Below, piece by piece: positions 957 through 64,000 of a DNA stretch of 64,000 nucleotides. The notes below the pieces were generated by a model that worked only from the letters and a program-made list of their open reading frames with translations, did no database searches and was not told where the DNA came from. The stretch's first letter is position 1. The number at the start of each line of letters is the position of its first letter. Location: NCBI GenBank assembly GCA_009914755.4, contig CP086569.2:57440001-57504000 (forward strand). The letters run 5' to 3'. Both the position numbers and the translations under genes were made by a program. This DNA comes from the human T2T-CHM13v2.0 reference genome, Homo sapiens.

Positions 957-3735
957 CTCCTTTGGAATGGTCTAGTATGCAATGCAATCGACTGGCAGGG
1001 AATTAAAAGGCATGCAATCGAATGGATTGCACAGGAATGCAATGGACTCGAATAGATTGGAAACAGAATGCAAAGGAATGGAATGGAATAGTATGGAATG
1101 GAATGGAAAGGAATGGAGTGGAATAGACTAGAGTAGAATGGAATTTACTCGAAAGCAATGGACTGGAATAGAACTTTCTTGAATGGGCTGGAATCAAACG
1201 GAATGGAATGCTGTGCAATCAAATAGAATGAAAGAGAATCAAATCCAATCGAATGGATTGGAAAGGAATTGACTGAAATGGAATGGACTAGAATGGAAGG
1301 CAAAGGAATGGAATCTATAGGAATGGACTGTAATGGAATGGAATGGAAGGGATTGGAATGGAATCGAATGGAATGGACTGCAATAGAAAGGATTCGAATG
1401 GAATGAAAAAGAATTGAATGGAATAGAACAGAATGGAATCAAATCGAATGAAATGGAATGGAATAGAAAGGATTCGAATGGAATGCAATCGAACGGAATG
1501 GAATCGAACGGAATGGAATAAAATGGAAGAAAACTGGCAAGAAATGGAATCGAAATGAATGGAGTGTTATGGAACGGACTCAAAAGGAATTGAATGTAAT
1601 AGAATGGAGTGGAGTGGACTCGAATATAATGGACTGGAATGGAATGAAATCACATGGAATGGGAACGAATGGAATGGAATGGAAAGGAATGGAATCGAAT
1701 GGAAAGGAATCGAATGGAAGGGAATGAAATTGAATCAACAGGAATGGAAGGGAATAGAATAGACGGTAATGGAATGGACTCGAATAGAATGGACACGAAT
1801 GCTCAAATTGAATGGACTCGAATGGAATGGAAACGAAAGGAATGTCATCGAATGTAATTGAATCGATTGGAATGAAATCGCATAGAATGGAGTGGAATCA
1901 AATGGAATTGAGTCGAAAGGAAAGGAAGCGAATGGACTGAAATGAAATGGAATGGAATTGAATGGAAAGTAATGCAATGGAATAGAATGGAACGAAATTT
2001 CACGGAATGGAATCAAACTGAATGGAATCAAATCAATGGAATCAAATCAAATGGAATGGAAAGGAATTGAATGGAGTAGATGGGATTGGATGGGATTGGA
2101 ATGAAATGTACTGGAAAGAACTCGAATTTCATGAAACGGAATGGAATGAATTGGAACGGAATGGACTCGAATGGAATGGAATGTCATGGAATGGCATCAA
2201 ATGGAATGGCATCAAATGGAATGGAATCGAATGCAATGGAATGCTATGGAATGGAATGGAATGCATTGGAATGGAATGTCCTCTAATGGAATGGATTCGA
2301 GTGGAATGGAATCGAATATAATGGAGTCGAATGAAATGTAATTGAAAGGAATGGGATCGAATACCATGTAATATACTGGAATGTAATGTAATGAACTCGA
2401 ATGTAATTGACTGGAATGGAATGTACATGAATGGAATGTAATCGAATGGAAAGTAATCCAATGGAATAGAATCTAATGCAATAAAATCGACTCAAATAGA
2501 ATAGAATGTAATGGAATGGAGTGCAGAGCAATGGAATGGAATGGAATGGAATGCAGTGGAATGGAATGGAATGGAATGCAATGGAATGGAATGTATTAGA
2601 ATGTAATGAACATTAATGGAATGTACTCGAATGGATTCGACTGGAATGGAATGTTCTGGAAGTTTATGGACTCCAATGGAATAGATTCGAAAGGAATGGA
2701 ATCGAACGGAATGGAATCTAATGGAATGGAATTAAATGGAAATGAATCAAATTGAATAGCACGGAATTGAATTGAATGGAATAGAATGCAATGTAATCTA
2801 ATGAAACAGAAAGGAAAGGAATGGAATGGAATGGAATGGGCTGGAATGGAATGGAATCGAAACGAATGGAATGGAATCGAACTAAAGAGACTGGAATGGA
2901 ATGCACTGGAATGGAAGGGAGTGTAATGGAAGGTTCTCGAAAAAAATGGAATCGAATGGAATGGAATTGAATGGAACGGAATAGAGTCGAATGGAATTGA
3001 ATGGAATGGAATGGACTAGAGTGAAATGGAATCGAACCACAAGGAATGGACAGGAATAGAATGGTCTCGAATTGAATGGAATCGTATGGAATGGCATCAA
3101 ACGGAATGGAATGGACAGCCACGGAATGGAATGCACTCGAATGTAATGGAGTCGAAACTAATGGACTGGAATAGAATGGACTCGACTGGTACGGACTCCA
3201 ATGGAATGGAATCGAATGGAAGGGAATCGAACAGAATGGACTCGAAGGGAAAAGACTGCAATGGAAAGGTCTCGAATGGAATGGAAATTAATGGAATGGA
3301 ATGGAATCGAATGAAGTGGAGTCTAAAGGAATGGAATCGAATGGCAAGAAATCGAATGTAATGGAATCGCAAGGAATTGATGTGAACGGAACGGAATGGA
3401 ATGGAATCCAAAGGAATGTAATAGAATGGAATGGAATCAAATGGAAAGGACTCGAATGGAAATCACTCGAATAGAATGCAATTTAATAAAATAGGATCAA
3501 ATGTAATGGAATGGAATGGAAAGGAATCGAAACGAAAGGAATGGAGACAGATGGAATGGAATGGAACAGAGAGCAATGGTATAGAATGGAATGGAATCAT
3601 CTGGAATGGAATTGAATGGAATGCAATAACATGAAATGGAATGGAATGGAATGGAATGCCCTTGAATTAAATGGACTGGAATGGAATGGACTCGAACAGA
3701 GTGGAATGGAAAGTGTTGAAATAGAATGGAATGGA
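957..3735 (+). repeat. HOR unit U0, the array-edge unit. It is about 2779 bp, divergent, and lacks ~680 bp plus several small segments that are present in downstream units.
   Basis: Its landmarks align to U1 with an offset of 2779 at 1003/3782, 2869-2870 between 1535 and 2531, and 3549 from ~2595 onward. About 3-4% of bases are substituted relative to downstream units; the artefactual ORF at 1003-1218 differs at 6 of 71 residues from its downstream counterparts. Confidence 0.8.
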
Positions 3736-6700
3736 CTCGTTTGGAATGGTCTAGTATGCAATGCAATCGACTGGCAGGGAATCAAAAGGAATGTAATCGA
3801 ATGGATTGGACTGGAATGCAATGGACTCGAATAGATTGGAAACGGAATGCAAAGGAATGGAATGGAATAGTATGGAATGGAATGGAAAGGAATGGAGTGG
3901 AATAGACTAGAGTGGAATGGAATGGACTCAAAAGCAATGGACTGGAATGGAACTTTCTTGAATGGACTGGAATCAAACGGAATGGAATGCAATGCAATCA
4001 AATGGCATGGAATAACATAGAATGAAAGAGAATCAAATGGAATTGAATGGAATGGAATCGAATGGATTGGAAAGGAATAGAATGGAATGGAATGGAATTG
4101 ACTCAAATGGAATGGACTAGAATGGAATGGATTCGAATGGAAGGCAAAGGAATGGAATCTATTGGAATGGACTGTAATGGAATGGAATGGAAGGGATTGG
4201 AATGGACTCGAATGGAATGGACTGCAATAGAAAGGATTCGAATGGAATGAAAAAGAATTGAATGGAATAGAACAGAATGGAATCAAATCGAATGAAATGG
4301 AATGGAATAGAAAGGAATGGAATGAAATGGAATGGAAAGGATTCGAATGGAATGCAATAGAATGGAATGGAATCGAACGGAATGGAATAAAATGGAAGAA
4401 AACTGGCAAGAAATGGAATCGAAATGAATGGAGTGTTATGGAACGGACTCATAAGGAATTGAATGTAATAGAATTGAGTGAAGTGGACTCGAATATAATG
4501 GACTGGAATGGAATGAAATCACATGGAATGGGAACGAATGGAATGGAATGGAAAGGAATGGAATCGAATGGAAAGGAATGGAATGGAAGGGAATGAAACT
4601 GAATCAACAGGAATGGAAGGGAGTAGAATAGACGGTAATGGAATGGACTCGAATAGAATGGACACGAATGCACAAATTGAATGGACTCGAATGGAATGGA
4701 AACGAAAGGAATGTCATCGAATGGAATTGAATCGATTGGAATGAAATCGCATAGAATGGAGTGGAATCAAATGGAATTGAGTCGAAAGGAAAGGAAGCGA
4801 ATGGACTGAAATGAAATGGAATGGAATGGAATGGAAAGTAATGCAATGGAATAGAATGGAACGAAATTTCACGGAATGGAATCAAACTGAATGGAATAAA
4901 ATCAATGGAATATAATCAAATGGAATGGAAAGGAATTGAATGGAGTAGATTGGATTGGATGGGATTGGAATGAAATGGAATGGAAAGGACTCGAATTTCA
5001 TGAAACGGAATGGAATGAATTGGAACGGAATGGACTCGAATGGAATGGAATGTCATGGAATTGCATCAAATGGAATGGCATCAAAGGGAATGGAATCGAA
5101 TGCAATGGAATGCTATGGAATGGATTGGAATGCATTGGAATGGAATGTCCTCTAATGGAATGGATTCGAGTGGAATGGAATCGAATATAATGGAGTCGAA
5201 TGAAATGGAATTGAAAGGAATGGGATCGAATACAATGGAATATACTGGAATGTAACGTAATGAACTCGAATGTAATTGACTGGAATGGAATGTACACGAA
5301 TGGAATGTAATCGAATGGAAAGTAATCCAATGGAATAGAATGTAATGCAATAAAATCGACTCAAATAGAATAGAATGCAATGGAATGGAGTGCAGTGCAA
5401 TGGAATGGAATGGAATGGAATGCAATGGAATGGAATGGAATGGAATGGAATGCAATGGGATGGAATGGTATGGAATGGATAGTAATGGACTGGAGTGAAA
5501 TGGACTGGAAAGGAATGGACTCAAATTGAAAGGTCTCGAAAGGAATGGAGTCAAATGGAATGGTCTGGAATGGAATGAACACGAATGTAATGCAATCCAA
5601 TAGAATGGAATCGAATGGCATGGAATATAAAGAAATGGAATCGAAGAGAATGGAAACAAATGGAATGGAATTGAATGGAATGGAATTGAATGGAATGGGA
5701 ACGAATGGAGTGAAATTGTATGCAGTAGAAGAGAATAGAATGGAATGCAAGCGAAAGGAAAGGAATGGATTGGAATGGAATGGAATTCATTGGAATGGAA
5801 GGGAATGTAGTGTAATGGACAGGCCTGGAATAAAGTGGAATGCTACGGTCTCGAATGGAATAAAAATGTATGGAATGGAATGCAATGAAACGGAATCGAA
5901 TGTCATAGAATGTAATGGAATGCAAAAAAATGGAATCCAAAATCATTGACTGGAAAGGCTGGGTGTCGAAAGGAATTGACTCCAATGGAATGGAATCGAA
6001 TGGAATGGAAGTGAATAGAATCGAACTAAATCGAATGGAATGGAATTGATAGGAACGGAATGGAAAGGAATGCAATGATTTGGCATGGAATGGAATCGAA
6101 TGGCATCGAATGGAATGGAATGGAATGCAATGGAATGGAATATATTAGAATGTAATGAACTTTAATGGAATGTACTCGAATGGATTCGACTGGAATGGAA
6201 TGTTCTGGAAGTGAATGGACTCCAATGGAATGGATTCGAAAGGAATGGAATCGTACGGAATGGAATCTAATGGAATGGAATTAAATGGAAATGAATCAAA
6301 TTGAATAGCACGGAATTGAATTGAATGGAATGGAATGCAATGGAATCTAATGAAACGGAAAGGAAAGGAATGGAATGGAATGGAATGGGCTGGAATGGAA
6401 AGGAATCGAAACGAATGGAATGGAATCGAACTGAAGAGACTGGAATGGAATGCACTGGAATGGAAGGGAGTGTAATGGAAGGTTCTCGAAAAAAATGGAA
6501 TCGAATGGAATGGAATTGAATGGAACGGAATAGAGTCGAATGGAATTGAATGGAATGGAATGGACTAGAGTGAAATGGAATCGAACCACAAGGAATGGAC
6601 AGGAATAGAATGGTCTCGAATTGAATGGAATCGTATGGAATGGCATCAAACGGAATGGAATGGACAGACACGGAATGGAATGCACTCGAATGCAATGGAG

Positions 6701-7284
6701 TCGAAACTAATGGACTGGAATAGAATGGACTCGACTGGTACGGACTCCAATGGAATGGAATCGAATGCAAGGGAATCGAACGGAATGGACTCGAAGGGAA
6801 AAGACTGCAATGGAAAGGTCTCGAATGGAATGGAAATTAATGGAATGGATTGGAATCGAATGAAATGGAGTCAAAAGGAATGGAATCGAATGGCAAGAAA
6901 TCGAATGTAATGGAATCGCAAGGAATTGATGTGAACGGAACGGAATGGAATGGAATCCAAAGGAATGGAATAGAATGGAATGGAATCGAATGGAAAGGAC
7001 TCGAATGGAAATCACTCGAATAGAATGCAATTTAATAAAATAGGATCAAATGTAATGGAATGGAATGGAAAGGAATCGAAACGAAAGGAATGGAGACAGA
7101 TGGAATGGAATGGAACAGAGAGCAATGGTATAGAATGGAATGGAATCATCTGGAATGGAATTGAATGGAATGGAATAACATGAAATGGAATGGAATGGAA
7201 TGGAATGCCCTTGAATTAAATGGACTTGAATGGAATGGACTCGAACAGAGTGGAATGGAAAGTGTTGAAATATAATGGAATGGA
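3736..7284 (+). repeat. HOR unit U1 (~3549 bp)
   Basis: Spacing of recurring landmark strings and ORF-track motifs: 'MESNGKDSNG' at 3431 and 6980, and 'ggactc(c/g)tttggaatggtctagtatgcaatgcaatcgactggcaggg' at 3733 and 7284. Confidence 0.85.
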
Positions 7285-10200
7285 CTCCTTTGGAATGGTC
7301 TAGTATGCAATGCAATCGACTGGCAGGGAATCAAAAGGAATGTAATCGAATGGATTGGACTGGAATGCAATGGATTCGAATAGATTGGAAACGGAATGCA
7401 AAGGAATGGAATGGAATAGTATGGAATGGAATGGAAAGGAATGGAGTGGAATAGACTAGAGTGGAATGGAATGGACTGGAAAGCAATGGACTGGAATGGA
7501 ACTTTCTTGAATGGACTGGAATCAAACGGAATGGAATGCAATGCAATCAAATGGCATGGAATAAAATAGAATGAAAGAGAATCAAACGGAATTGAATCGA
7601 ATGGAATCGAATGGATTGGAAAGGAATAGAATGGAATGGAATGGAATTGACTCAAATGGAATGGACTAGAATGGAATGGATTCGAATGGAAGGCAAAGGA
7701 ATGGAATCTATTGGAATGGACTGTAATGGAATGGAATGGAAGGGATTGGAATGGACTCGAATGGAATGGACTGCAATAGAAAGGATTCGAATGGAATGAA
7801 AAAGAATTGAATGGAATAGAACAGAATGGAATCAAACCTCATGAAATAGAATGGAATAGAAAGGAATGGAATGAAATGGAATGGAAAGGATTCGAATGGA
7901 ATGCAATCGAATGGAATGCAATCGAATGGAATGGAATCGAACGGAATGGAATAAAATGGAAGAAAACTGGCAAGAAATGGAATCGAAATGAATGGAGTGT
8001 TATGGATCGGACTCAAAAGGAATTGAATGTAATAGAATGGAGTGGAGTGGACTCGAATATAATGGACTGGAATGGAATGAAATCACATGGAATGGGAACG
8101 AATGGAATGGAATGGAAAGGAATGGAATCGAATGGAAAGGAATCGAATGGAAGGGAATGAAATTGAATCAACAGGAATGGAAGGGAGTAGAATAGACGGT
8201 AATGGAATGGACTCGAATAGAATGGACACGAATGCTCAAATTGAATGGACTCGAATGGAATGGAAACGAAAGGAATGTCATCGAATGGAATTGAATCGGT
8301 TGGAATGAAATCGCATAGAATGGAGTGGAATCAAATGGAATTGAATCGAAAGGAAAGGAAGCGAATGGACTGAAATGAAATGGAATGGAATTGAATGGAA
8401 AGTAATGCAATGGAATAGAATGGAACGAAATTTCACGGAATGGAATCAAACTGAATGGAATCAAATCAATGGAATATAATCAAATGGAATGGAAAGGAAT
8501 TGAATGGAGTAGATTGGGTTGGATGGGATTGGAATGAAATGGAATGGAAAGGACTCGAATTTCATGAAACGGAATGGAATGAATTGGAACGGAATGGACT
8601 CGAATGGAATGGAATGACATGGAATGGCAAGAAATGGAATGGCATCAAAGGGAATGGAATCGAATGCAATGGAATGCTATGGAATGGAATGGAATGCATT
8701 GGAATGGAATGTCCTCTAATGGAATGGATTCGAGTGGAATGGAATCGAATATAATGGAGTCTAATGAAATGGAATTGAAAGGAATGGGATCCAATACAAT
8801 GGAATATACTGGAATGTAATGTAATGAACTCGAATGTAATTGACTGGAATGGAATGTACATGAGTGGAATGTAATCGAATGGAAAGTAATCCAATGGAAT
8901 AGAATCTAATGCAATAAAATCGACTCAAATAGAGTAGAATGTAATGGAATGGAGTGTAGTGCAATGGAATGGAATGGAATGGGATGGAATGGTATGGAAT
9001 GGATAGTAATGGACTGGAGTGAAATGGACTGGAAAATAATGGACTCAAATTGAAAGGGCTCGAAAGGAATGGAGTCAAATGGAATGGTCTGGAATGGAAT
9101 GAACACGAATGTAATGCAATCCAATAGAATGGAATCGAATGGCATGGAATATAAAGAAATGGAATCGAAGAGAATGGAAACAAATGGAATGGAATTGAAT
9201 GGAATGGAATTGAATGGAATGGGAACGAATGGAGTGAAATTGTATGCAGTAGAAGAGAATAGAATGGAATGCAAGCGAAAGGAAAGGAATGGATTGGAAT
9301 GGAATGGAATTCATTGGAATGGAAGGGAATGTAGTGTAATGGACAGGCCTGGAATAAAGTGGAATGCTACGGTCTCGAATGGAATAAAAATGTATGGAAT
9401 GGAATGCAATGAAACGGAATCGAATGTCATAGAATGTAATGGAATGCAAAAAAATGGACTCCAAAATCATTGACTGGAAAGGCTGGGTGTCGAAAGGAAT
9501 TGACTCCAATGGAATGGAATCGAATGGAATGGAAGTGAATAGAATCGAACTAAATCGAATGGAATGGAATTGATAGGAACGGAATGGAAAGGAATGCAAT
9601 GATTTGGCATGGAATGGAATCGAAAGGCATCGAATGGAATGGAATGGAATGCAATGGAATGGAATGTATTAGAATGTAATGAACATTAATGGAAAGTACT
9701 CGAATGGATTCGACTGGAATGGAATGTTCTGGAAGTGAATGGACTCCAATGGAATGGATTCGAAAGGAATGGAATCGAACGGAATGGAATTAAACGGAAA
9801 TGAATCAAATAGAATAGAACGGAATTGAATTGAATGGAATCGAATGCAATGGAATCTAATGAAACGGAAAGGAATGGAATGGAATGGGCTGGAATGGAAT
9901 GGAATCGAAACGAATGGAATGGAATCGAACTGAAGAGACTGGAATGGAATACACTGGAATGGAAGGGAATGTAATGGAAGGTTCTCGAAAAAAATGTAAT
10001 TGAAAGGAATGGAATTGAGTGGAACGGAATAGAGTCGAATGGAATTCAATGGAATGGAATGGACTAGAGTGAAATGGAATCGAACCACAAGGAATGGACA
10101 GGAATAGAATGGTCTCGAATTGAATGGAATCGTATGGAATGGCATCAAACGGAATGGAATGGACAGCCACGGAATGGAATGCACTCGAATGCAATGGAGT

Positions 10201-10783
10201 CGAAACTAATGGACTGGAATAGAATGGACTCGACTGGTACGGACTCCAATGGAATGGAATCGAATGGAAGGGAATCGAACGGAATGGACTCGAAGGGAAA
10301 AGACTGCAATGGAAAGGTCTCGAATGGAATGGAAATTAATGGAATGGAATGGAATCGAATGAAATGGAGTCAAAAGGAATGGAATCGAATGGCAAGAAAT
10401 CGAATGTAATGGAATCACAAGGAATTGATGTGAACGGAACGGAATGGAATGGAATCCAAAGGAATGGAATAGAATGGAATGGAATCGAATGGAAAGGACT
10501 CGAATGGAAATCACTCGAATAGAATGCAATTTAATAAAATAGGATCAAATGTAATGGAATGGAATGGAAAGGAATCGAAACGAAAGGAATGGAGACAGAT
10601 GGAATGGAATGGAACAGAGAGCAATGGTATAGAATGGAATGGAATCATCTGGAATGGAATTGAATGGAATGGAATAACATGAAATGGACTGGAATGGAAT
10701 GGAATGCCCTTGAATTAAATGGACTGGAATGGAATGGACTCGAACAGAGTGGAATGGAAAGTGTTGAAATAGAATGGAATGGA
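7285..10783 (+). repeat. HOR unit U2 (~3499 bp; subtype A)
   Basis: Landmark spacing 6980 to 10479. It lacks the 15-bp 'aaggaaaggaatggaatggatt' insertion that is present in subtype-B units. Confidence 0.85.
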
Positions 10784-13700
10784 CTCGTTTGGAATGGTCT
10801 AGTATGCAATGCAATCGACTGGCAGGGAATCAAAAGGAATGTAATCGAATGGATTGGACTGGAATGCAATGGACTCGAATAGATTGGAAACGGAATGCAA
10901 AGGAATGGAATGGAATAGTATGGAATGGAATGGAAAGGAATGGAGTGGAATAGACTAGAGTGGAATGGAATGGACTCGAAAGCAATGGACTGGAATGGAA
11001 CTTTCTTGAATGGACTGGAATCAAACGGAATGGAATGTAATGCAATCAAATGGCATGGAATAAAATAGAATGAAAGAGAATCAAATGGAATTGAATCGAA
11101 TGGAATCGAATGGATTGGAAAGGAATAGAATGGAATGGAATGGAATTGACTCAAATGGAATGGACTAGAATGGAATGGATTCGAATGGAAGGCAAAGGAA
11201 TGGAATCTATTGGAATGGACTGTAATGGAATGGAATGGAAGGGATTGGAATGGACTCGAATGGAATGGACTGCAATAGAAAGGATTCGAATGGAATGAAA
11301 AAGAATTGAATGGAATAGAACAGAATGGAATCAAATCGAATGAAATGGAATGGAATAGAAAGGAATGGAATGAAATGGAATGGAAAGGATTCGAATGGAA
11401 TGCAATCGAATGGAATGGAATCGAACGGAATGGAATAAAATGGAAGAAAACTGGCAAGAAATGGAATCGAAATGAATGGAGTGTTATGGAACGGACTCAA
11501 AAGGAATTGAATGTAATAGAATGGAGTGGAGTGGACTCGAATATAATAGACTGGAATGGAATGAAATCACATGGAATGGGAACGAATGGAATGGAATGGA
11601 AAGGAATGGAATCGAATGGAAAGGAATCGAATGGAAGGGAATGAAATTGAATCAACAGGAATGGAAAGGAGTAGAATAGACGGTAATGGAATGGGCTCGA
11701 ATAGAATGGACACGAATGCTCAAATTAAATGGACTCGAATTGAATGGAAACGAAAGGAATGTCATCGAATGGAATTGAATCGATTGGAATGAAATCACAT
11801 ATAATGGAGTGGAATCAAATGGAATTGAATCGAAAGGAAAGGAAGCGAATGGACTGAAATGAAATGGAATGGAATTGAATGGAAAGTAATGCAATGGAAT
11901 AGAATGGAAAGAAATTTCACGGAATGGAATCAAACTGAATGGAATCAAATCAATGGAATATAATCAAATGGAATGGAAAGGAATTGAATGGAGTAGATAG
12001 GATTGGATGGGATTGGAATGAAATGTACTGGAAAGGACTCGAATTTCATGAAACGGAATGGAATGAATTAGAACGGAATGGACTCGAATGGAATGGAATA
12101 TCACGGAATGGCATCAAATGGAATGGCATCAATTGGAATGGAATCGAATGCAATGGAATGCTATGGAATGGAATGGAAAGCATTGGAATGGAATGTCCTC
12201 TAATGGAATGGATTCGAGTGGAATGGAATCGAATATAATGGAGTCTAATGAAATGGAATTGAAAGGAATGGGATCCAATACAATGGAATATACTGGAATG
12301 TAATGTAATGAACTCGAATGTAATTGACTGGAATGGAATGTACATGAATGGAATGTAATCGAATGGAAAGTAATCCAATGGAATAGAATCTAATGCAATA
12401 AAATCGACTCAAGTAGAGTAGAATATAATGGAATGGAGTGCAGTGCAATGGAATGGAATGGAATGGAATGCAATGGAATGGAATGGAATGGAATGGAATG
12501 GAATGGGATGGAATGGTATGGAATGGATAGTAATGGACTGGAGTGAAATGGACTGGAAAGGAATGGACTCAAATTGAAAGGGCTCGAAAGGAATGGAGTC
12601 AAATGGAATGGTCTGGAATGGAATGAACACGAATGTAATGCAATCCAATAGAATGGAATCGAATGGCATGGAATATAAAGAAATGGAATCGAAGAGAATG
12701 GAAACAAATGGAATGGAATTGAATGGAATGGAATTGAATGGAATGGGAACGAATGGAGTGAAATTGTATGCAGTAGAAGAGAATAGAATGGAATGCAAGC
12801 GAAAGGAAAGGAATGGATTGGAATGGAATGGAATTCATTGGAATGGAAGGGAATGTAGTGTAATGGACAGGCCTGGAATAAAGTGGAATGCTACGGTCTC
12901 GAATGGAATAAAAATGTATGGAATGGAATGCAATGAAACGGAATCGAATGTCATAGAATGTAATGGAATGCAAAAAAATGGAATCCAAAATCATTGACTG
13001 GAAAGGCTGGGTGTCGAAAGGAATTGACTCCAATGGAATGGAATCGAATGGCATGGAAGTGAATAGAATGGAACTAAATCGAATGGAATGGAATTGATAG
13101 GAACGGAATGGAAAGGAATGCAATGATTTGGCATGGAATGGAATCGAATGGCATCGAATGGAATGGAATGGAATGCAATGGAATGGAATGTATTAGAATG
13201 TAATGAACTTTAATGGAATGTACTCGAATGGATTCGACTGGAATGGAATGTTCTCGAAGTGAATGGACTCCAATGGAATGGATTCGAAAGGAATGGAATC
13301 TAATGGAATGGAATTAAATGGAAATGAATCAAATTGAATAGAACGGAATTGAATTGAATGGAATCGAATGCAATGGAATCTAATGAAAAGGAAAGGAAAG
13401 GAATGGAATGGATTGGAATGGAATGGGCTGGAATGGAATGGAATCGAAACGAATGGAATGGAATCGAACTGAAGAGACTGGAATGGAATGCACTGGAATG
13501 GAAGGGAATGTAATGGAAGGTTCTCAAGAAAAATGGAATCGAAAGGAATGGAATTGAATGGAACGGAATAGAGTCGAATGGAATTCAATGGAATGGAATG
13601 GACTAGAGTGAAATGGAATCGAACCACAAGGAATGGACAGGAATAGAATGGTCTCGAATTGAATAGAATCGTATGGAATGGCATCAAACGGAATGGAATG

Positions 13701-53400: not shown

Positions 53401-54032
53401 GAATGGAATGGACAGCCCCGGAATGGAATGCACTCGAATGCAATGGAGTCGAAACTAATGGACTGGAATAGAATGGACTCGACTGGTACGGACTCCAATG
53501 GAATGGAATCGAATGGAAGGGAATCGAACGGAATGGACTCGAAGGGAAAAGACTGCAATGGAAAGGTCTCGAATGGAATGGAAATTAATGGAATGGAATG
53601 GAATCGAATGAAATGGAGTCAAAAGGAATGGAATCGAAGGGCAAGAAATCGAATGTAATGGAATCGCAAGGAATTGATGTGAACGGAACGGAATGGAATG
53701 GAATCCAAAGGAATGGAATAGAATGGAATGGAATCGAATGGAAAGGACTCGAATGGAAATCACTCGAATAGAATGCAATTTAATAAAATAGGATCAAATG
53801 TAATGGAATGGAATGGAAGGGAATCGAAACGAAAGGAATGGAGACAGATGGAATGGAATGGAACAGAGAGCAATGGTATAGAATGGAATGGAATCATCTG
53901 GAATGGAATTGAATGGAATGGAATAATATGAAATGGAATGGAATGGAATGGAATGGAATGCCCTCGAATTAAATGGACTGGAATGGAATGGACTCGAACA
54001 GAGTGGAATGGAAAGTGTTGAGATAGAATGGA
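50485..54032 (+). repeat. HOR unit U14 (~3548 bp)
   Basis: Landmark spacing 50180 to 53728. Confidence 0.85.
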
Positions 54033-57000
54033 ATGGACTCCTTTGGAATGGTGTAGTATGCAATGCAATCGACTGGCAGGGAATCAAAAGCAATGTAATG
54101 GAATGGATTGGACTGGAATGCAATGGACTCGAATAGATTGGAAACGGCATGCAAAGGAATGGAATGGAATAGTATGGAATGGAATGGAAAGGAATGGAGT
54201 GGAATAGACTAGAGTGGAATGGAATGGACTGGAAAGCAATGGACTGGAATGGAAGTTTCTTGAATGGACTGGAATCAAACGGAATGGAATGCAATGCAAT
54301 CAAATGGCATGGAATAAAATAGAATGAAAGAGAATCAAATGGAATTGAATCGAATGGAATCGAATGGATTGGAAAGGAATAGAATGGAATGGAATGGAAT
54401 TGACTCAAATGGAATGGACTAGAATGGAATGGATTCGAATGGAAGGCAAAGGAATGGAATCTATTGGAATGGACTGTAATGGAATGGAATGGAAGGGATT
54501 GGAATGGACTCGAATGGAATGGACTGCAATAGAAAGGATTCGAATGGAATGAAAAAGAATTGAATGGAATAGAACAGAATGGAATCAAATCGAATGAAAT
54601 GGAATGGAATAGAAAGGAATGGAATGAAATGGAATGGAAAGGATTCGAATGGAATGCAATCGAATGGAATGGAATCGAACGGAATGGAATAAAATGGAAG
54701 AAAACTGGCAAGAAATGGAATCGAAATGAATGGAGTGTTATGGAACGGACTCAAAAGGAATTGAATGTAATAGAATGGAGTGGAGTGGACTCGAATATAA
54801 TGGACTGGAATGGAATGAAATCACATGGAATGGGAACGAATGGAATGGAATGGAAAGGAATGGAATCGAATGGAAAGGAATCGAATGGAAGGGAATGAAA
54901 TTGAATCAACAGGAATGGAAGGGAATAGAATAGACGGTAATGGAATGGACTCGAATAGAATGGACACGAATGCTCAAATTGAATGGACTCGAAAGGAATG
55001 GAAAGGAAAGGAATGTCATCGAATGGAATTGAATCGATTGGAATGAAATCGCATAGAATGGAGTGGAATCAAATGGAATTGAATCGAAAGGAAAGGAAGC
55101 GAATGGACTGAAATGAAATGGAATGGAATTGAATGGAAAGTAATGCAATGGAATAGAATGGAACGAAATTTCACGGAATGGAATCAAACTGAATGGAATC
55201 AAATCAATGGAATCTAATCAAATGGAATGGAAAGGAATTGAATGGAGTAGATTGGATTGGATGGGATTGGAATGAAATGTACTGGAAAGGACTCGAATTT
55301 CATGAAACGGAATGGAATGAATTGGAACGGAATGGACTCGAATGGAATGGAATGTCATGGAATGGCATCAAATGGAATGGCATCAAATGGAATGGAATCG
55401 AATGCAATGGAATGCTATGGAATGGAATGGAATGCATTGGAATGGAATGTCCTCTAATGGAATGGATTCGAGTGGAATGGAATCGAATATAATGGAGTCG
55501 AATGAAATGGAATTGAAAGGAATGGGATCGAATAGAATAGAATATACTGGAATGTAATGTAATGAACTCGAATGTAATTGACTGGAATGGAATGTACATG
55601 AATGGAATGTAATCGAATGGAAAGTAATCCAATGGAATAGAATCTAATGCAATAAAATCGACTCAAATAGAGTAGAATGTAATGGAATGGAGTGCAGTGC
55701 AATGGAATGCAATGGAATGGAATGGAATGGAATGGAATGGGATGGAATGGTATGGAATGGATAGTAATGGACTGGAGTGAAATGGACTGGAAAGGAATGG
55801 ACTCAAATTGAAAGGGCTCGAAAGGAATGGAGTCAAATGGAATGGTCTGGAATGGAATGAACACGAATGTAATGCAATCCAATAGAATGGAATCGAATGG
55901 CATGGAATATAAAGAAATGGAATCGAAGAGAATGGAAACAAATTGAATGGAATTGAATGGAATGGAATTGAATGGAATGGGAACGAATGGAGTGAAATTG
56001 TATGCAGTAGAAGAGAATAGAATGGAATGCAAGCGAAAGGAAAGGAATGGATTGGAATGGAATGGAATTCATTGGAATGGAAGGGAATGTAGTGTAATGG
56101 ACAGGCCTGGAATAAAGTGGAATGCTACGGTCTCGAATGGAATAAAAATGTATTGAATGGAATGCAATGAAACGGAATCGAATGTCATAGAATGTAATGG
56201 AATGCAAAAAATGGAATCCAAAATCATTGACTGGAAAGGCTGGGTGTCGAAAGGAATTGACTCCAATGGAATGGAATCGAATGGAATGGAAGTGAATAGA
56301 ATCGAACTAAATCGAATGGAATGGAATTGATAGGAACGGAATGGAAAGGAATGCAATGATTTGGCATGGAATGGAATCGAATGGCATCGAATGGAATGGA
56401 ATGGAATGCAATGGAATGGAATGTGTTAGAATGTAATGAACTTTAATGGAATGTACTCGAATGGATTCGACTGGAATGGAATGTTCTGGAAGTGAATGGA
56501 CTCCAATGGAATGGATTCCAAAGGAATGGAATCGTACGGAATGGAATCTAATGGAATGGAATTAAATGGAAATGAATCAAATGGAATAGCACGGAATTGA
56601 ATTGAATGGAATGGAATGCAATGGAATCTAATGAAACGGAAAGGAAAGGAATGGAATGGAATGGAATGGGCCTGAATGGAAAGGAATCGAAATGAATGGA
56701 ATAGAATCGAACTGAAGAGACTGGAATGGAATGCACTGGAATGGAAGGGACTGTAATGGAAGGTTCTCGAAAAAAATGGAATGGAATGGAATGGAATTGA
56801 ATGGAACGGAATAGAGTCGAATGCAATTGAATGGAATGGAATGGACTAGAGTGAAATGGAATCGAACCACAAGGAATGGACAGGAATAGAATGGTCTCGA
56901 ATTGAATGTAATCGTATGGAATGGCATCAAACGGAATGGAATGGACAGCCACGGAATGGAATGCACTCGAATGCAATGGAGTCGAAACTAATGGACTGGA

Positions 57001-57565
57001 ATAGAATGGACTCGACTGGTACGGACTCCAATGGAATGGAATCGAATGGAAGGGAATCGAACGGAATGGACTCGAAGGGAAAAGACTGCAATGGAAAGGT
57101 CTGGAATGGAATGGAAATTAATGGAATGGAATGGAATCGAATGAAATGGAGTCAAAAGGAATGGAATCGAATGGCAAGAAATCGAATGTAATGGAATCAC
57201 AAGGAATTGATGTGAACGGAACGGAATGGAATGGAATCCAAAGGAATGGAATAGAATGGAATGGAATCGAATGGAAAGGACTCGAATGGAAATCACTCGA
57301 ATAGAATGCAATTTAATAAAATAGGATCAAATGTAATGGAATGGAATGGAAAGGAATCGAAACGAAAGGAATGGAGACAGATGGAATGGAATGGAACAGA
57401 GAGCAATGGTATAGAATGGAATGGAATCATCTGGAATGGAATTGAATGGAATGGAATAATATGAAATGGAATGGAATGGAATGGAATGGAATGGAATGCC
57501 CTTGAATTAAATGGAATGGACTCGAACAGAGTGGAATGGAAAGTGTTGAGATAGCATGGAATGGA
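54033..57565 (+). repeat. HOR unit U15 (~3533 bp)
   Basis: Landmark spacing 53728 to 57261. It has an extra GGCC at 56669-56672 ('aatgggcctgaatgg'). Confidence 0.85.
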
Positions 57566-60500
57566 CTCCTTCGGAATGGTCTAGTATGCAATGCAATCGA
57601 CTGGCAGGGAATCAAAAGGAATGTAATCGAATGGATTGGACTGGAATGCAATGGACTCGAATAGATTGGAAACGGAATGCAAAGGAATGGAATGGAATAG
57701 TATGGAATGGAATGGAAAGGAATGGAGTGGAATAGACTAGAGTGGAATGGAATGGACTGGAAAGCAATGGACTGGAATGGAACTTTCTTGAATGGACTGG
57801 AATCAAACGGAATGGAATGCAATGCAATCAAATGGCATGGAATAAAATAGAATGAAAGAGAATCAAATGGAATTGAATCGAATGGAATCGAATGGATTGG
57901 AAAGGAATAGAATGGAATGGAATGGAATTGACTCAAATGGAATGGACTAGAATGGAATGGATTCGAATGGAAGGCAAAGGAATGGAATCTATTGGAATGG
58001 ACTGTAATGGAATGGAATGGAAGGGATTGGAATGGACTCGAATGGAATGGACTGCAATAGAAAGGATTCGAATGGAATGAAAAAGAATTGAATGGAATAG
58101 AACAGAATGGAATCAAATCGAATGAAATGGAATGGAATAGAAAGGAATGGAATGAAATGGAATGGAAAGGATTCGAATGGAATGCAATCGAATGGAATGG
58201 AATCGAACGGAATGGAATAAAATGGAAGAAAACTGGCAAGAAATGGAATCGAAATGAATGGAGTGTTATGGAACGGACTCAAAAGGAATTGAATGTAATA
58301 GAATGGAGTGGAGTGGACTCGAATATAATGGACTGGAATGGAATGAAATCACATGGAATGGGAACGAATGGAATGGAATGGAAAGGAATGGAATCGAATG
58401 GAAAGGAATCGAATGGAAGGGAATGAAATTGAATCAACAGGAATGGAAGGGAATAGAATAGACGGTAATGGAATGGACTCGAATAGAATGGACACGAATG
58501 CTCAAATTGAATGGACTCGAATGGAATGGAAACGAAAGGAATGTCATCGAATGGAATTGAATGGATTGGAATGAAATCGCATAGAATGGAGTGGAATCAA
58601 ATGGAATTGAATCGAAAGGAAAGGAAGCGAATGGACTGAAATGAAATGGAATGGAATTGAATGGAAAGTAATGCAATGGAATAGAATGGAAGGAAATTTC
58701 ACGGAATGGAATCAAACTGAATGGAATCAAATCAATGGAATCTAATCAAATGGAATGGAAAGGAATTGAATGGAGTAGATTGGATTGGATGGGATTGGAA
58801 TGAAATGTACTGGAAAGGACTCGAATTTCATGAAACGGAATGGAATGAATTGGAACGGAATGGACTCGAATGGAATGGAATGTCATGGAATGGCATCAAA
58901 TGGAATGGCATCAAATGGATTGGAATCGAATGCAATGGAATGCTATGGAATGGAATGGAATGCATTGGAATGGAATGTCCTCTAATGGAATGGATTCGAG
59001 TGGAATGGAATCGAATATAATGGAGTCGAATGAAATGGAATTGAAAGGAATGGGATCGAATACAATGGAATATACTGGAATGTAATGTAATGAACTCGAA
59101 TGTAATTGACTGGAATGGAATGTACATGAATGGAATGTAATCGAATGGAAAGTAATCCAATGGAATAGAATCTAATGCAATAAAATCGACTCAGATAGAG
59201 TAGAATGTAATGGAATGGAGTGCAGTGGAATGGAATGGAATGGAATGGAATGCAATGGAATGGAATGGAATGGAATGGAATGGGATGGAATGGTATGGAA
59301 TGGATAGTAATGGACTGGAGTGAAATGGACTGGAAAGGAATGGACTCAAATTGAAAGGGCTCGAAAGGAATGGAGTCAAATGGAATGGTCTGGAATGGAA
59401 TGAACACGAATGTAATGCAATCCAATAGAATGGAATCGAATGGCATGGAATATAAATAAATGGAATCGAAGAGAATGGAAACAAATGGAATGGAATTGAA
59501 TGGAATGGAATTGAATGGAATGGGAACGAATGGAGTGAAATTGTATGCAGTAGAAGAGAATAGAATGGAATGCAAGCGAAAGGAAAGGAATGGATTGGAA
59601 TGGAATGGAATTCATTGGAATGGAAGGGAATGTAGTGTAATGGACAGGCCTGGAATAAAGTGGAATGCTACGGTCTCGAATGGAATAAAAATGTATGGAA
59701 TGGAATGCAATGAAACGGAATCGAATGTCATAGAATGTAATGGAATGCAAAAAAATGGAATCCAAAATCATTGACTGGAAAGGCTGGGTGTCGAAAGGAA
59801 TTGACTCCAATGGAATGGAATCGAATGGAATGGAAGTGAATAGAATCGAACTAAATCGAATGGAATGGAATTGATAGGAACGGAATGGAAAGGAATGCAA
59901 TGATTTGGCATGGAATGGAATCGAATGGCATCGAATGGAATGGAATGGAATGCAATGGAATGGAATGTATTAGAAAGTAATGAACTTTAATGGAATGTAC
60001 TCGAATGGATTCGACTGGAATGGAATGTTCTGGAAGTGAATGGACTCCAATGGAATGGATTCAAAAGGAATGGAATCGTACGGAATGGAATCTAATGGAA
60101 TGGAATTAAATGGAAATGAATCAAATGGAATAGCACGGAATTGAATTGAATGGAATCGAATGCAATGGAATCTAATGAAACGGAAAGGAAAGGAATGGAA
60201 TGGAATGGAATGGGCTGGAATGGAAAGGAATCGAAACGAATGGAATGGAATCGAACTGAAGAGACTGGAATGGAATGCACTGGAATGGAAGGGAGTGTAA
60301 TGGAAGGTTCTCGAAAAAAATGGAATCGAATGGAATGGAATTGAATGGAACGGAATAGAGTCGAATGGAATTGAATGGAATGGAATGGACTAGAGTGAAA
60401 TGGAATCGAACCACAAGGAATGGACAGGAATAGAATGGTCTCGAATTGAATGGAATCGTATGGAATGGCATCAAACGGAATGGAATGGACAGCCACGGAA

Positions 60501-61094
60501 TGGAATGCACTCGAATGCAATGGAGTCGAAACTAATGGACTGGAATAGAATGGACTCGACTGGTACGGACTCCAATGGAATGGAATTGAATGGAAGGGAA
60601 TCGAACGGAATGGACTCGAGGGGAAAAGACTGCAATGGAAAGGTCTCGAATGGAATGGAAATTAATGGAATGGAATGGAATCGAATGAAATGGAGTCAAA
60701 AGGAATGGAATCGAATGGCAAGAAATCGAATGTAATGGAATCGCAAGGAATTGATGTGAATGGAGCGGAATGGAGTGGAATCCAAAGGAATGGAATCGAA
60801 TGGAAAGGACTCGAATGGAAATCACTCGAATAGAATGCAATTTAATAAAATAGGATCAAATGTAATGGAATGGAATGGAAAGGAATCGAAACGAAAGGAA
60901 TGGAGACAGATGGAATGGAATGGAACAGAGAGCAATGGTATAGAATGGAATGGAATCATCTGGAATGGAATTGAATGGAATGGAATAATATGAAATGGAA
61001 TGGAATGGAATGGAATTGAATGCCCTTGAATTAAATGGACTGGAATGGAATGGACTCGAACAGAGTGGAATGGAAAGTGTTGAGATAGAATGGA
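57566..61094 (+). repeat. HOR unit U16 (~3529 bp)
   Basis: Landmark spacing 57261 to ~60790. It has a 10-bp deletion at ~57515 and a 15-bp deletion at ~60780. Confidence 0.85.
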
Positions 61095-64000
61095 ATGGAC
61101 TCCTTTGGAATGGTGTAGTATGCAATGCAATCGACTGGCAGGGAATCAAAAGGAATGTAATGGAATGGATTGGACTGGAATGCAATGGACTCGAATAGAT
61201 TGGAAACGGAATGCAAAGGAATGGAATGGAATAGGATGGAATGGAATGGAAAAGAATGGAGTGGAATAGACTAGAGTGGAATGGAATGGACTGGAAAGCA
61301 ATGGACTGGAATGGAACTTTCTTGAATGGACTGGAATCAAACGGAATAGAATGCAATGCAATCAAATGGCATGGAATAAAATAGAATGAAAGAGAATCAA
61401 ATGGAATTGAATCGAATGGAATCGAATGGATTGGAAAGGAATAGAATGGAATGGAATGGAATTGTCTCAAATGGAATGGATTCGAATGGAATGGATTCGA
61501 ATGGAAGGCAAAGGAATGGAATCTATTGGAATGGACTGTAATGGAATGGAATGGAATGGAATGGAAAGGATTGGAATGGACTCGAATGGAATGGACTGCA
61601 ATAGAAAGGATTCGAATGGAATTAAAAAGAATTGAATGGAATAGAACAGAATGGAATCAAATCGAATGAAATGGAATGGAATAGAAAGGAATGGAATGAA
61701 ATGGAATGGAAAGGATTCGAATGGAATGCAATCGAATGGAATGGAATCGAACAGAATGGAATAAAATGGAAGAAAACTGGCAAGAAATGGAATCGAAATG
61801 AATGGAGTGTTATGGAACGGACTCAAAAGGAATTGAATGTAATAGAATGGAGTGGAGTGGACTCGAATATAATGGACTGGAATGGAATGAAATCACATGG
61901 AATGGGAACGAATGGAATGGAATGGAAAGGAATGGAATCGAATGGAAAGGAATCGAATGGAAGGGAATGAAATTGAATCAACAGGAATGGAAGGGAATAG
62001 AATAGACGGTAATGGAATGGACTCGAATAGAATGGACACGAATGCTCAAATTGAATGGACTCGAATGGAATGGAAACGAAAGGAATGTCATCGAATGGAA
62101 TTGAATGGATTGGAATGAAATCGCATAGAATGGAGTGGAATCAAATGGAATTGAATCGAAAGGAAAGGAAGCGAATGGACTGAAATGAAATGGAATGGAA
62201 TTGAATGGAAAGTAATGCAATGGAATAGAATGGAAGGAAATTTCACGGAATGGAATCAAACTGAATGGAATCAAATCAATGGAATCTAATCAAATGGAAT
62301 GGAAAGGAATTGAATGGAGTAGATTGGATTGGATGGGATTGGAATGAAATGTACTGGAAAGGACTCGAATTTCATGAAACGGAATGGAATGAATTGGAAC
62401 GGAATGGACTCGAATGGAATGGAATGTCATGGAATGGCATCAAATGGAATGGCATCAAATGGAATGGAATCGAATGCAATGGAATGCTATGGAATGGAAT
62501 GGAATGCATTGGAATGGAATGTCCTCTAATGGAATGGATTCGAGTGGAATGGAATCGAATATAATGGAGTCGAATGAAATGGAATTGAAAGGAATGGGAT
62601 CGAATACAATGGAATATACTGGAATGTAATGTAATGAACTCGAATGTAATTGACTGGAATGGAATGTACATGAATGGAATGTAATCGAATGGAAAGTAAT
62701 CCAATGGAATAGAATCTAATGCAATAAAATCGACTCAGATAGAGTAGAATGTAATGGAATGGAGTGCAGTGCAATGGAATGGAATGGAATGGAATGCAAT
62801 GGAATGGAATGGAATGGAATGGAATGGGATGGAATGGTATGGAATGGATAGTAATGGACTGGAGTGAAATGGACTGGAAAGGAATGGACTCAAATTGAAA
62901 GGGCTCGAAAGGAATGGAGTCAAATGGAATGGTCTGGAATGGAATGAACACGAATGTAATGCAATCCAATAGAATGGAATCGAATGGCATGGAATATAAA
63001 TAAATGGAATCGAAGAGAATGGAAACAAATGGAATGGAATTGAATGGAATGGAATTGAATGGAATGGGAACGAATGGAGTGAAATTGTATGCAGTAGAAG
63101 AGAATAGAATGGAATGCAAGCGAAAGGAAAGGAATGGATTGGAATGGAATGGAATTCATTGGAATGGAAGGGAATGTAGTGTAATGGACAGGCCTGGAAT
63201 AAAGTGGAATGCTACGGTCTCGAATGGAATAAAAATGTATGGAATGGAATGCAATGAAACGGAATCGAATGTCATAGAATGTAATGGAATGCAAAAAAAT
63301 GGAATCCAAAATCATTGACTGGAAAGGCTGGGTGTCGAAAGGAATTGACTCCAATGGAATGGAATCGAATGGAATGGAAGTGAATAGAATCGAACTAAAT
63401 CGAATGGAATGGAATTGATAGGAACGGAATGGAAAGGAATGCAATGATTTGGCATGGAATGGAATCGAATGGCATCGAATGGAATGGAATGGAATGCAAT
63501 GGAATGGAATGTATTAGAAAGTAATGAACTTTAATGGAATGTACTCGAATGGATTCGACTGGAATGGAATGTTCTGGAAGTGAATGGACTCCAATGGAAT
63601 GGATTCAAAAGGAATGGAATCGTACGGAATGGAATCTAATGGAATGGAATTAAATGGAAATGAATCAAATGGAATAGCACGGAATTGAATTGAATGGAAT
63701 GGAATGCAATGGAATCTAATGAAACGGAAAGGAAAGGAATGGAATGGAATGGAATGGGCTGGAATGGAAAGGAATCGAAACGAATGGAATGGAATCGAAC
63801 TGAAGAGACTGGAATGGAATGCACTGGAATGGAAGGGAGTGTAATGGAAGGTTCTCGAAAAAAATGGAATCGAATGGAATGGAATTGAATGGAACGGAAT
63901 AGAGTCGAATGGAATTGAATGGAATGGAATGGACTAGAGTGAAATGGAATCGAACCACAAGGAATGGACAGGAATAGAATGGTCTCGAATTGAATGGAAT
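61095..64000 (+). repeat. HOR unit U17 (partial, truncated by the window end)
   Basis: Landmarks continue in register: 61774, 62914 and 63192 are equivalents of upstream landmarks. It has a 10-bp pentamer gain near 61545. Confidence 0.85.

What the first reader, a model, noticed from the sequence alone, without database searches (positions are those of the whole stretch)
957..64000. 63-kb HSat3 (GGAAT)n array with a ~3.5-kb higher-order repeat and one HaeIII site per unit, a DYZ1-like (Yq12) signature
Conserved GGCC sites sit inside 'ggacaggcctgg' at about 5823, 9347, 12871, 16385, 19899, 23412, 26926, 30475, 34039, 37598, 41167 (with a second site 785 bp later inside the U11 duplication), 45489, 49023, 52572, 56105, 59648 and 63192. 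An in-silico HaeIII digest would therefore give a ~3.5-kb ladder. This matches the classical male-specific 3.4/3.56-kb HaeIII repeat made of TTCCA pentamers. If correct, the window is Y-heterochromatin.
Basis: partly seen in the sequence, partly recalled or inferred. Interest (0 to 1): 0.5.

Follow-up and report, generated by a model that had tools for sequence, protein, structure and literature searches.

The report
Human Y-chromosome DYZ1 satellite array
The window is an ordinary, well-known piece of the human Y chromosome's long-arm heterochromatin: the edge of a DYZ2 satellite block followed by about 18 tandem 3.5-kb DYZ1 repeat units.

Summary
From about 956 to 64000 the window is one uninterrupted, single-orientation (GGAAT)n satellite with a 3.5-kb higher-order repeat: 16 full units of 3,513-3,569 bp, mean 3,536 bp. 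Each unit has one HaeIII site in the same context. Every HaeIII-to-HaeIII unit aligns end to end with a published 3,564-bp DYZ1 unit at 96.4-99.1% identity. Of the 14 HSat2/3 subfamily-diagnostic 24-mers in Altemose 2014, only the HSat3A6 (DYZ1, chrY) one is present, 21 times. A published human DYZ qPCR primer pair hits once per unit. GC content (38.7%) and CpG density (1 per 35 bp) match published DYZ1 values.

DYZ1/DYZ2 alternation is the published hallmark of Yq12.

Corrections:
- There are 21 GGCC sites, not 18. Extra sites at 20717, 24230 and 56669 split three units.
- The number of GGCC sites is no higher than chance. Only their spacing and shared context are non-random.
- The array edge is degenerate.

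Y linkage rests on sequence identity and the literature. No human reference was available for direct mapping. The feature is already known and of low interest.

The parts
1..47 (+). Last ~47 bp of the GC-richer ('HSATI') part of a DYZ2/HSat1B unit
   Evidence: Metagenome contig L014 extends it leftwards into 47%-GC sequence. 26 DYZ2-like contigs share the 20-mer at window 26-45. In L008 the heptamer ACATACG, which Hallast et al. place at the HSATI/AT-rich intersection, lies at the position that corresponds to window ~48-54. The window carries a variant there.
48..952 (+). AT-rich simple-repeat part of a DYZ2/HSat1B unit, truncated where it meets DYZ1
   Evidence: Window 1-956 is 84.9% A+T. Window 3-947/952 aligns at 84-89% to units that recur every 2,399-2,420 bp in contigs L011, L018, L020 and L023. 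Each of those units carries one ~290-bp Alu at 75-77% identity to AluY. This matches the published DYZ2 description.
953..956 (.). DYZ2|DYZ1 block junction (within a few bases)
   Evidence: DYZ2 homology ends at 947-952 and DYZ1 homology starts at 956. The same junction is present at 99.6% identity over window 1-1100 in an independent contig, L014 = PKQM01000722.1.
956..1224 (-). Terminal DYZ1 fragment (unit positions 1831-2099), 94.8% identity
   Evidence: blastn against a dimer of the published unit.
1277..2593 (-). DYZ1 fragment (unit positions 372-1713), 96.4% identity
   Evidence: The 52 bp at 1225-1276 between this fragment and the previous one are pentamer-like but were not aligned.
2536..5823 (-). 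DYZ1 unit lacking its last ~0.5-0.6 kb (unit positions 1-3303), 97.6% identity. The join to the previous fragment skips about 0.6 kb of a unit.
   Evidence: The breakpoint is ambiguous over about 60-100 bp because of internal repetition.
5824..41167 (-). Ten full DYZ1 units, HaeIII to HaeIII (3,524, 3,524, 3,514, 3,514, 3,513, 3,514, 3,549, 3,564, 3,559, 3,569 bp)
   Evidence: Each aligns over positions 1-3564 of the published unit at 96.4-99.1%.
40553..42122 (-). 785-bp tandem duplication (two copies, ~99% identical) spanning the HaeIII site. It creates the 785-bp HaeIII fragment 41168-41952.
   Evidence: Identity at a lag of 785 bp is 0.92-1.0 between 40551 and 41350 and drops outside that range.
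41953..63192 (-). Six full DYZ1 units (3,537, 3,534, 3,549, 3,533, 3,543, 3,544 bp)
   Evidence: Identity to the published unit is 97.9-98.4%.
63193..64000 (-). Partial DYZ1 unit (positions 2757-3564) cut by the window end, 99.6% identity
20717..20720 (.). Extra HaeIII site (GGACAGCCACGG > GGACGGCCACGG). The same change is at 24230-24233 in the sister unit.
   Evidence: The site lies inside the published DYZ qPCR probe target TGGCTGTCCATTCCA, which these two units match with one mismatch.
56669..56672 (.). Extra HaeIII site private to one unit (GGAATGGGCCTGAATGG)

Best explanation
The window is human Yq12 heterochromatin. It starts in the last ~950 bp of a DYZ2 (HSat1B) block and continues with the first ~63 kb of the neighbouring DYZ1 (HSat3A6) block. 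DYZ1 is read here on its GGAAT strand, the reverse complement of the published TTCCA clones.

DYZ1 is non-coding satellite DNA. An ancestral (CATTC/GGAAT)n pentamer array diverged, and a ~3.56-kb stretch of it was then amplified as a higher-order unit.

What the sequence shows about how the array is maintained:
- Adjacent units are 98-99.6% alike.
- Some neighbouring units form sister pairs that share private mutations.
- Indels come in multiples of 5 bp.
- There is a 785-bp tandem duplication.
- The array edge is more diverged and rearranged than the interior.

The inferred mechanism is unequal sister-chromatid exchange, replication slippage and conversion on a non-recombining chromosome, as proposed in the T2T-Y and 43-Y papers.

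By inference from the literature, the function is constitutive, methylated heterochromatin with no established essential role. The array carries about 45 TEAD-core GGAATG motifs per kb, so like other HSat3 it could act as a sink or platform for TEAD and NFAT-type factors. Testis transcripts have been reported. None of this can be tested from sequence.
For: - Pentamer array: 4,129 GGAAT against 3 ATTCC, and TRF finds one continuous array from 977 to 64000.
- 3.5-kb HOR: 98-100% identity between successive copies. There are 16 full units, mean 3,536 bp, against a published mean of 3,543 bp.
- Published unit: full-length alignment of every unit to the published 3,564-bp DYZ1 unit at 96.4-99.1%. 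The clone is as close to the window's units (98.5-99.2%) as they are to each other (97.6-99.6%).
- Subfamily marker: the HSat3A6-specific 24-mer occurs 21 times, and the 13 other subfamily 24-mers occur 0 times.
- qPCR assay: the human DYZ primer pair of PMC4184833 matches exactly 16-17 times, once per unit.
- PCR primers: seven of the eight DYZ1 primers of PMC3925983 match once per unit with 0-2 mismatches.
- Composition: GC 38.7% and 1 CpG per 35.3 bp, against published values of 38% and 1 per 35 bp. There are 223-240 GGAAT per unit, against 235 in the published unit.
- Left flank: it is DYZ2, with 2,399-2,420-bp periodicity and a diverged Alu in the homologous contigs. Yq12 is described as alternating DYZ1 and DYZ2 arrays.
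- Indels: gap runs are 5, 10, 15, 20 or 25 bp in 117 of 124 cases.
- Divergence: it is higher at the array edge (94.8-97.6%) than further in (98-99%), as published for array peripheries.
Against: - No human genome assembly or male/female read data is available in these tools, so chromosomal position was not tested directly.
- Altemose 2014 lists HSat3A6 as 'Y, 7', so a minor non-Y location of the subfamily exists.
- Primer H of PMC3925983 finds no match within 2 mismatches. As printed it lacks one G of the HaeIII site, so this looks like a typographical or design feature of the primer.
- Identity of the AT-rich flank to most DYZ2-like contigs is only 84-89%, lower than the >98% quoted for typical DYZ2 units. 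The AT-rich part is described as the most variable part of the unit, and array edges as more diverged.
Confidence: 0.95

Rival explanations
1. An autosomal HSat3 block (9q12 HSat3B5, 15p HSat3A5, or acrocentric HSat3A1/A2/A4) that happens to have a ~3.5-kb periodicity.
For: The pentamer family (GGAAT)n is the same. HSat1B, the family of the left flank, also occurs in small amounts on acrocentric short arms.
Against: None of the diagnostic 24-mers of the 13 other HSat2/3 subfamilies occurs, while the HSat3A6 one occurs 21 times. All units align full length to a cloned DYZ1 unit at 96-99%. Out-of-register alignments within the pentamer family reach only about 70%, which shows what mere family resemblance looks like.
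Confidence: 0.01
2. The 2.7-kb repeat array next to DYZ18 at the Yq11/Yq12 border, whose unit is 77% DYZ1-derived (97% identity) and 23% DYZ18-derived.
For: That array shares 97% identity with DYZ1 over most of its unit. The first two kb of the array in the window are rearranged unit fragments.
Against: Units in the window are 3,513-3,569 bp and cover all 3,564 positions of DYZ1 with no foreign 23% segment. The neighbour is DYZ2, not DYZ18.
Confidence: 0.01
3. Genuine DYZ1/DYZ2 sequence that is not on a Y chromosome in this individual, for example Yq heterochromatin translocated to an acrocentric short arm or another autosome, or an unplaced or misjoined assembly contig.
For: Y-autosome translocations of the heterochromatic block, including in healthy females, are mentioned in the literature. 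Sequence alone cannot tell where a satellite block sits.
Against: Such carriers are rare. Nothing in the window is non-Yq12 sequence: there is no rDNA, beta-satellite, ACRO or other acrocentric material. Rfam finds nothing.
Confidence: 0.03
4. An orthologous HSat3 array from a non-human great ape Y chromosome.
For: Great apes also carry large HSat3 arrays (mentions ape HSat3 next to rDNA).
Against: A human clone falls inside the window's own unit-to-unit divergence range. The Yq12 heterochromatin is described as having evolved after the human lineage split. Human DYZ1 PCR and qPCR oligonucleotides match exactly.
Confidence: 0.01

Closest known systems
DYZ1 (HSat3 subfamily A6), the 3.4/3.56-kb HaeIII male-specific repeat of human Yq12
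   Same: - Pentamer base, unit length and one HaeIII site per unit.
- 96-99% full-length identity to a cloned unit.
- The subfamily 24-mer and the PCR/qPCR primer sites.
- GC and CpG content, 5-bp-multiple indels, a diverged array edge, and adjacency to DYZ2.
   Different: Nothing of substance. The private features are ordinary polymorphism:
- three extra HaeIII sites;
- a 785-bp internal tandem duplication;
- a truncated and rearranged edge unit.
DYZ2 (HSat1B), the ~2.42-kb AT-rich + Alu + HSATI repeat of Yq12
   Same: Window 1-952 is homologous to the end of the HSATI part plus the first ~900 bp of the AT-rich part of units that recur every 2,399-2,420 bp and carry one ~23-25% diverged Alu.
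   Different: Only a truncated unit lies in the window, and its Alu is outside it. Identity to most sampled units is 84-89%, and 99.6% to one contig that carries the same junction.
Other HSat3 arrays (9q12 HSat3B5, 15p HSat3A5, acrocentric HSat3A1/A2/A4)
   Same: The same (GGAAT)n ancestry and a dense supply of GGAATG TEAD-core motifs (45 per kb).
   Different: Their diagnostic 24-mers are absent. The literature read here attributes the 3.56-kb HOR only to the Y subfamily.

Membership tests
DYZ1 / HSat3A6 | Built from diverged TTCCA/GGAAT pentamers in one orientation | tested here: met
   4,129 GGAAT against 3 ATTCC. TRF finds one array from 977 to 64000. There are 223-240 GGAAT per unit, against 235 in the published unit.
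DYZ1 / HSat3A6 | Higher-order unit of ~3.5-3.6 kb, highly homogenised | tested here: met
   16 full units of 3,513-3,569 bp, mean 3,536 bp. Pairwise identity is 97.6-99.6%. The published mean is 3,543 bp.
DYZ1 / HSat3A6 | One HaeIII (GGCC) site per unit, giving the 3.4/3.56-kb HaeIII fragment | tested here: met
   There are 18 canonical sites in an identical context. 13 of the 20 internal fragments are 3,513-3,569 bp. Three units carry an extra site, and one 785-bp fragment comes from a duplication.
DYZ1 / HSat3A6 | Sequence identity over the whole unit to a cloned DYZ1 unit | tested here: met
   All units align over positions 1-3564 of the MZT1a unit (PMC3925983 Additional file 1) at 96.4-99.1%.
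DYZ1 / HSat3A6 | Carries HSat3A6-specific k-mers and not those of other HSat2/3 subfamilies (Altemose 2014, Table 1) | tested here: met
   The HSat3A6 24-mer occurs 21 times. The 13 other subfamily 24-mers occur 0 times. Only the single most common 24-mer per subfamily was available.
DYZ1 / HSat3A6 | Amplifiable by published DYZ1 assays | tested here: met
   The DYZ qPCR primers of PMC4184833 match exactly 16-17 times, and the probe matches exactly 12 times and 19 times allowing one mismatch. Primers A-G of PMC3925983 match once per unit at 0-2 mismatches. Primer H does not match. The Kogan Y1.1/Y1.2 primers, recalled from memory and not found in the library, match exactly and are spaced for a 154-bp product.
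DYZ1 / HSat3A6 | Base composition of about 38% GC and about 1 CpG per 35 bp | tested here: met
   38.7% GC and 1 CpG per 35.3 bp, against the values in Hallast et al..
DYZ1 / HSat3A6 | Lies in blocks that alternate with DYZ2/HSat1B blocks | tested here: met
   Window 1-952 is homologous to DYZ2 units. The junction is at about 953-956.
DYZ1 / HSat3A6 | Male-specific, located on Yq12 | not testable with these tools
   No human assembly or sex-stratified read data is available. This is inferred from the literature, which calls this subfamily Y-specific.
DYZ2 / HSat1B (left flank only) | ~2.42-kb unit made of an AT-rich simple repeat, one ~290-bp ~20% diverged Alu and a ~570-bp GC-richer HSATI part | tested here: inconclusive
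   The window holds only the last ~47 bp of the HSATI part and ~900 bp of AT-rich repeat, 84.9% A+T. The full architecture (2,399-2,420-bp period, Alu at 75-77% identity) was seen in the homologous metagenome contigs, not in the window itself.

The most novel reading that the evidence does not exclude
The DYZ2|DYZ1 junction seen here may be a conserved 'scar' copied along with whole blocks during the multi-block duplications that built Yq12. At this junction the AT-rich repeat is cut after ~900 bp and joined to DYZ1 unit position ~2100, followed by an edge unit with a ~0.6-kb deletion. If so, junction types like this one could serve as markers to reconstruct the order of those duplications and to compare Y haplogroups. 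The only support is that an unrelated metagenome contig (L014) carries the same junction at 99.6% identity.
Probability: 0.3. Interest if true: 0.2.

Novelty: already known. Interest (0 to 1): 0.07.

Why it matters
It matters mainly for annotation. It fixes the origin of the window as human, male, Yq12 heterochromatin at a DYZ2/DYZ1 block boundary. It also tells later readers that nothing in the window should be interpreted as genes or as a microbial feature.

The array is a clean small-scale illustration of satellite dynamics already described in the T2T-Y and 43-Y papers:
- local sister units;
- indels in multiples of 5 bp;
- a 785-bp internal duplication;
- a degenerate array edge.

As a side result, DYZ1/DYZ2 sequence, including a 54.6-kb contig, sits in public metagenome assemblies as human contamination. 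This agrees with the warning in the T2T-Y paper.

Tried and rejected
- A full-text search for the recalled Kogan primer TCCACTTTATTCCAGGCCTGTCC found no paper. Its exact matches in the window therefore rest on my memory of the primer, and I rank them below the verified assays.
- An exact 37-mer from window 17-53 found nothing in the GTDB genome contigs. The window's copy differs from the common DYZ2 variants at two positions inside that 37-mer. A shorter 20-mer in the metagenome collection then gave 26 contigs.
- The Nature version of Hallast et al. is not held. I used the bioRxiv version and its supplement instead. No DYZ2 consensus sequence is printed there.
- The heptamer ACATACG and its reverse complement are absent from window 1-1000. 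It is present at the homologous position of L008, so the window carries a variant.
The DYZ2 Alu would lie just left of the window start.
- An Rfam scan of the whole window found nothing.
- The 57 'ORFs' of 150 aa or more are all on the minus strand with TTG or GTG starts. I rejected them as stop-free reading frames of (TTCCA)n.
- I looked for a multi-unit super-repeat in the unit identity matrix. Only local sister pairs appear, with no regular higher period.
Full report
**Observation.** The window has 21 GGCC sites. Eighteen lie in the identical context GTAATGGACAGGCCTG, at 5822, 9346, 12870, 16384, 19898, 23411, 26925, 30474, 34038, 37597, 41166, 41951, 45488, 49022, 52571, 56104, 59647 and 63191. 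Two of them have GCAAT instead of GGAAT just downstream. Spacings are 3,513-3,569 bp, except for the 785 + 3,537 pair.

Those at 20717 and 24230 share the same A>G change, GGACAGCCACGG to GGACGGCCACGG, in two adjacent units. The third is at 56669. An in-silico HaeIII digest therefore gives 13 fragments of 3.51-3.57 kb, plus 819+2,694, 819+2,695, 565+2,978 and 785 bp.

The number of GGCC sites is not remarkable. Base composition predicts about 41 and a first-order Markov model about 18. What is non-random is the spacing and the shared context.

**Periodicity.** TRF reports one continuous pentamer-derived array from 977 to 64000. GGAAT occurs 4,129 times and ATTCC 3 times, so the array has a single orientation. 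From about 2950 onward, 500-bp blocks match the sequence about 3.5 kb downstream at 98-100%.

Cutting at the canonical sites gives 16 full units with a mean of 3,536 bp. Twelve of them have a length of 4 mod 5, like the 3,564-bp reference. Pairwise substitution identity is 97.6-99.6%. Alignment gaps are 5, 10, 15, 20 or 25 bp in 117 of 124 runs, which is the signature of pentamer slippage.

Neighbouring units form local sister pairs: 12872-16385 with 16386-19899, and 19900-23412 with 23413-26926, each at 99.5%. The second pair shares the extra HaeIII site. The 'U11 duplication' is a 785-bp tandem duplication, about 40553-41337 and 41338-42122, roughly 99% identical.

**Identity.** Additional file 1 of PMC3925983 prints complete 3,564-bp DYZ1 HaeIII units (GenBank KF941192-KF941199). 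I transcribed the MZT1a blood unit and aligned it to the window. Every unit aligns over positions 1-3564 on the minus strand at 96.4-99.1%, and the partial unit at the right end at 99.6%. Out-of-register alignments score only about 70%, which shows what mere membership of the pentamer family looks like.

In the multiple alignment the clone is 98.5-99.2% identical to the window's units. That places it inside their own range of mutual identity.

Independent markers agree:
- **Subfamily 24-mers.** Of the 14 diagnostic 24-mers in Table 1 of Altemose et al. 2014, only the HSat3A6 one (chromosomes 'Y, 7'; equated with DYZ1) occurs, 21 times. The other 13 occur 0 times.
- **qPCR assay.** The human DYZ primers printed in PMC4184833 match exactly once per unit.
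- **PCR primers.** Seven of the eight primers in Table 5 of PMC3925983 match once per unit with 0-2 mismatches.
- **Composition.** GC content is 38.7% and CpG density is 1 per 35.3 bp. The values given for DYZ1 by Hallast et al. are 38% and 1 per 35 bp.

A 20-mer from window 26-45 found 26 contigs in public metagenome assemblies. They align to window 3-947/952 at 84-89%. Where a contig holds two copies, the copies are 2,399-2,420 bp apart (L011, L018, L020, L023). Each unit contains one ~290-bp Alu at 75-77% identity to AluY.

This is the published architecture of DYZ2/HSat1B: a 2,420-bp unit with an AT-rich simple repeat of ~1.4 kb, a 290-bp Alu about 20% diverged, and a 566-bp HSATI part. 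In L008 the heptamer ACATACG, which Hallast et al. place at the HSATI/AT-rich intersection, sits at the position homologous to window ~48-54. The window has a variant there.

So window 1-47 is the end of the HSATI part, and 48-952 is a truncated AT-rich part. One contig, L014 (PKQM01000722.1), carries exactly the same DYZ2|DYZ1 junction at 99.6% identity over window 1-1100. Another, L008 (from a 54.6-kb contig, BNJU01004413.1), holds DYZ1 units at 97-98% and a different junction, DYZ1 position 496 joined to AT-rich sequence. Both the T2T-Y paper and Hallast et al. describe Yq12 as alternating DYZ1 and DYZ2 blocks.

**Array edge.** In DYZ1 orientation the array ends with three pieces:
- unit positions 1-3303 (window 5823-2536, 97.6%);
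- a jump to positions 372-1713 (window 2593-1277, 96.4%), which skips about 0.6 kb;
- after 52 unaligned bases, positions 1831-2099 (window 1224-956, 94.8%).

Identity to the clone rises from about 96.5-97.5% in the left half of the window to 98-99% in the right half. This fits the published observation that units at array peripheries are more diverged than central ones.

**Mechanism.** Shown by the sequence:
- a homogenised 3.5-kb HOR built on pentamers;
- indels in multiples of 5 bp;
- sister units that share private mutations;
- an internal tandem duplication;
- a degenerate edge.

Inferred, following Rhie et al. and Hallast et al.: these patterns arise from replication slippage and unequal sister-chromatid exchange or conversion on a non-recombining chromosome. 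Turnover is fastest in array interiors.

Function is inferred from the literature only. The region is constitutive, methylated heterochromatin whose size varies several-fold among healthy men. The array offers 2,818 GGAATG TEAD-core motifs, or 45 per kb, and HSat3 arrays have been shown to bind TEAD, NFAT and other factors. A testis DYZ1 transcript trans-spliced to CDC2L2 has been reported, with unclear function.

No Rfam family matches. The many minus-strand 'ORFs' are stop-free frames of (TTCCA)n.

**Rivals.**
- Autosomal HSat3 blocks are excluded by the subfamily markers and the full-length clone match.
- The DYZ1-derived 2.7-kb array beside DYZ18 is excluded by the unit length and the DYZ2 neighbour.
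- A non-human origin is very unlikely, because a human clone falls within the window's own divergence range.
- A rare translocated copy of Yq heterochromatin cannot be excluded from sequence alone.

Direct proof of Y linkage, by mapping to a T2T Y or by sex-specific read depth, could not be run here.

**Verdict.** This is the classical DYZ1 repeat at a DYZ2/DYZ1 block boundary. It is already known and fully described in complete Y assemblies.

Noticed in passing
window 1-952: The AT-rich left end that the finding left out is the truncated edge of a DYZ2/HSat1B unit: the end of the HSATI part plus ~900 bp of AT-rich repeat. The window therefore spans a DYZ2|DYZ1 block boundary.
   Followed up: yes
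L014 1-1841 (PKQM01000722.1) against window 1-1100: An independent public 'metagenome' contig carries the identical DYZ2|DYZ1 junction at 99.6% identity. This junction type therefore recurs, either in other males or in other Yq12 blocks.
   Followed up: partly
L008 1-5892 (from the 54.6-kb contig BNJU01004413.1): A long contig in a metagenome assembly is human Yq12. It holds DYZ1 units at 97-98% identity and then a different junction (DYZ1 unit position 496 joined to AT-rich sequence, Alu and HSATI), with the ACATACG heptamer. This is human male contamination of the kind the T2T-Y paper warns about.
   Followed up: partly
window 956-5823: The DYZ1 array edge is degenerate. It consists of three unit fragments at 94.8-97.6% identity, with a ~0.6-kb deletion between two of them and a 52-bp unaligned stretch at 1225-1276.
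   Followed up: yes
window 20717 and 24230; 56669: Three extra HaeIII sites. Two are the same A>G change in adjacent sister units and fall inside the target of a published DYZ qPCR probe. The third is private to one unit.
   Followed up: yes
window 3597-63444, minus strand: There are 57 mechanical ORFs of 150-313 aa, all on the minus strand with TTG or GTG starts, and they recur once per unit. They are stop-free frames of (TTCCA)n, not genes.
   Followed up: partly
L001 1-25 and L006 1-3250: L001 begins with a Nextera-adapter-like sequence (AGATGTGTATAAGAGACAG) followed by non-satellite sequence. L006 joins 3.2 kb of non-satellite, 39%-GC sequence to DYZ2-like AT-rich repeat. These may be chimeric or unfiltered metagenome contigs.
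   Followed up: no
loci L001-L026, position homologous to window 46-75: The DYZ2-like contigs fall into at least two sequence variants just after the HSATI part: ...AAATATATATACACATTATG... and ...AAATATATCTATACATTATG.... The window belongs to the second group, with a further private change.
   Followed up: no
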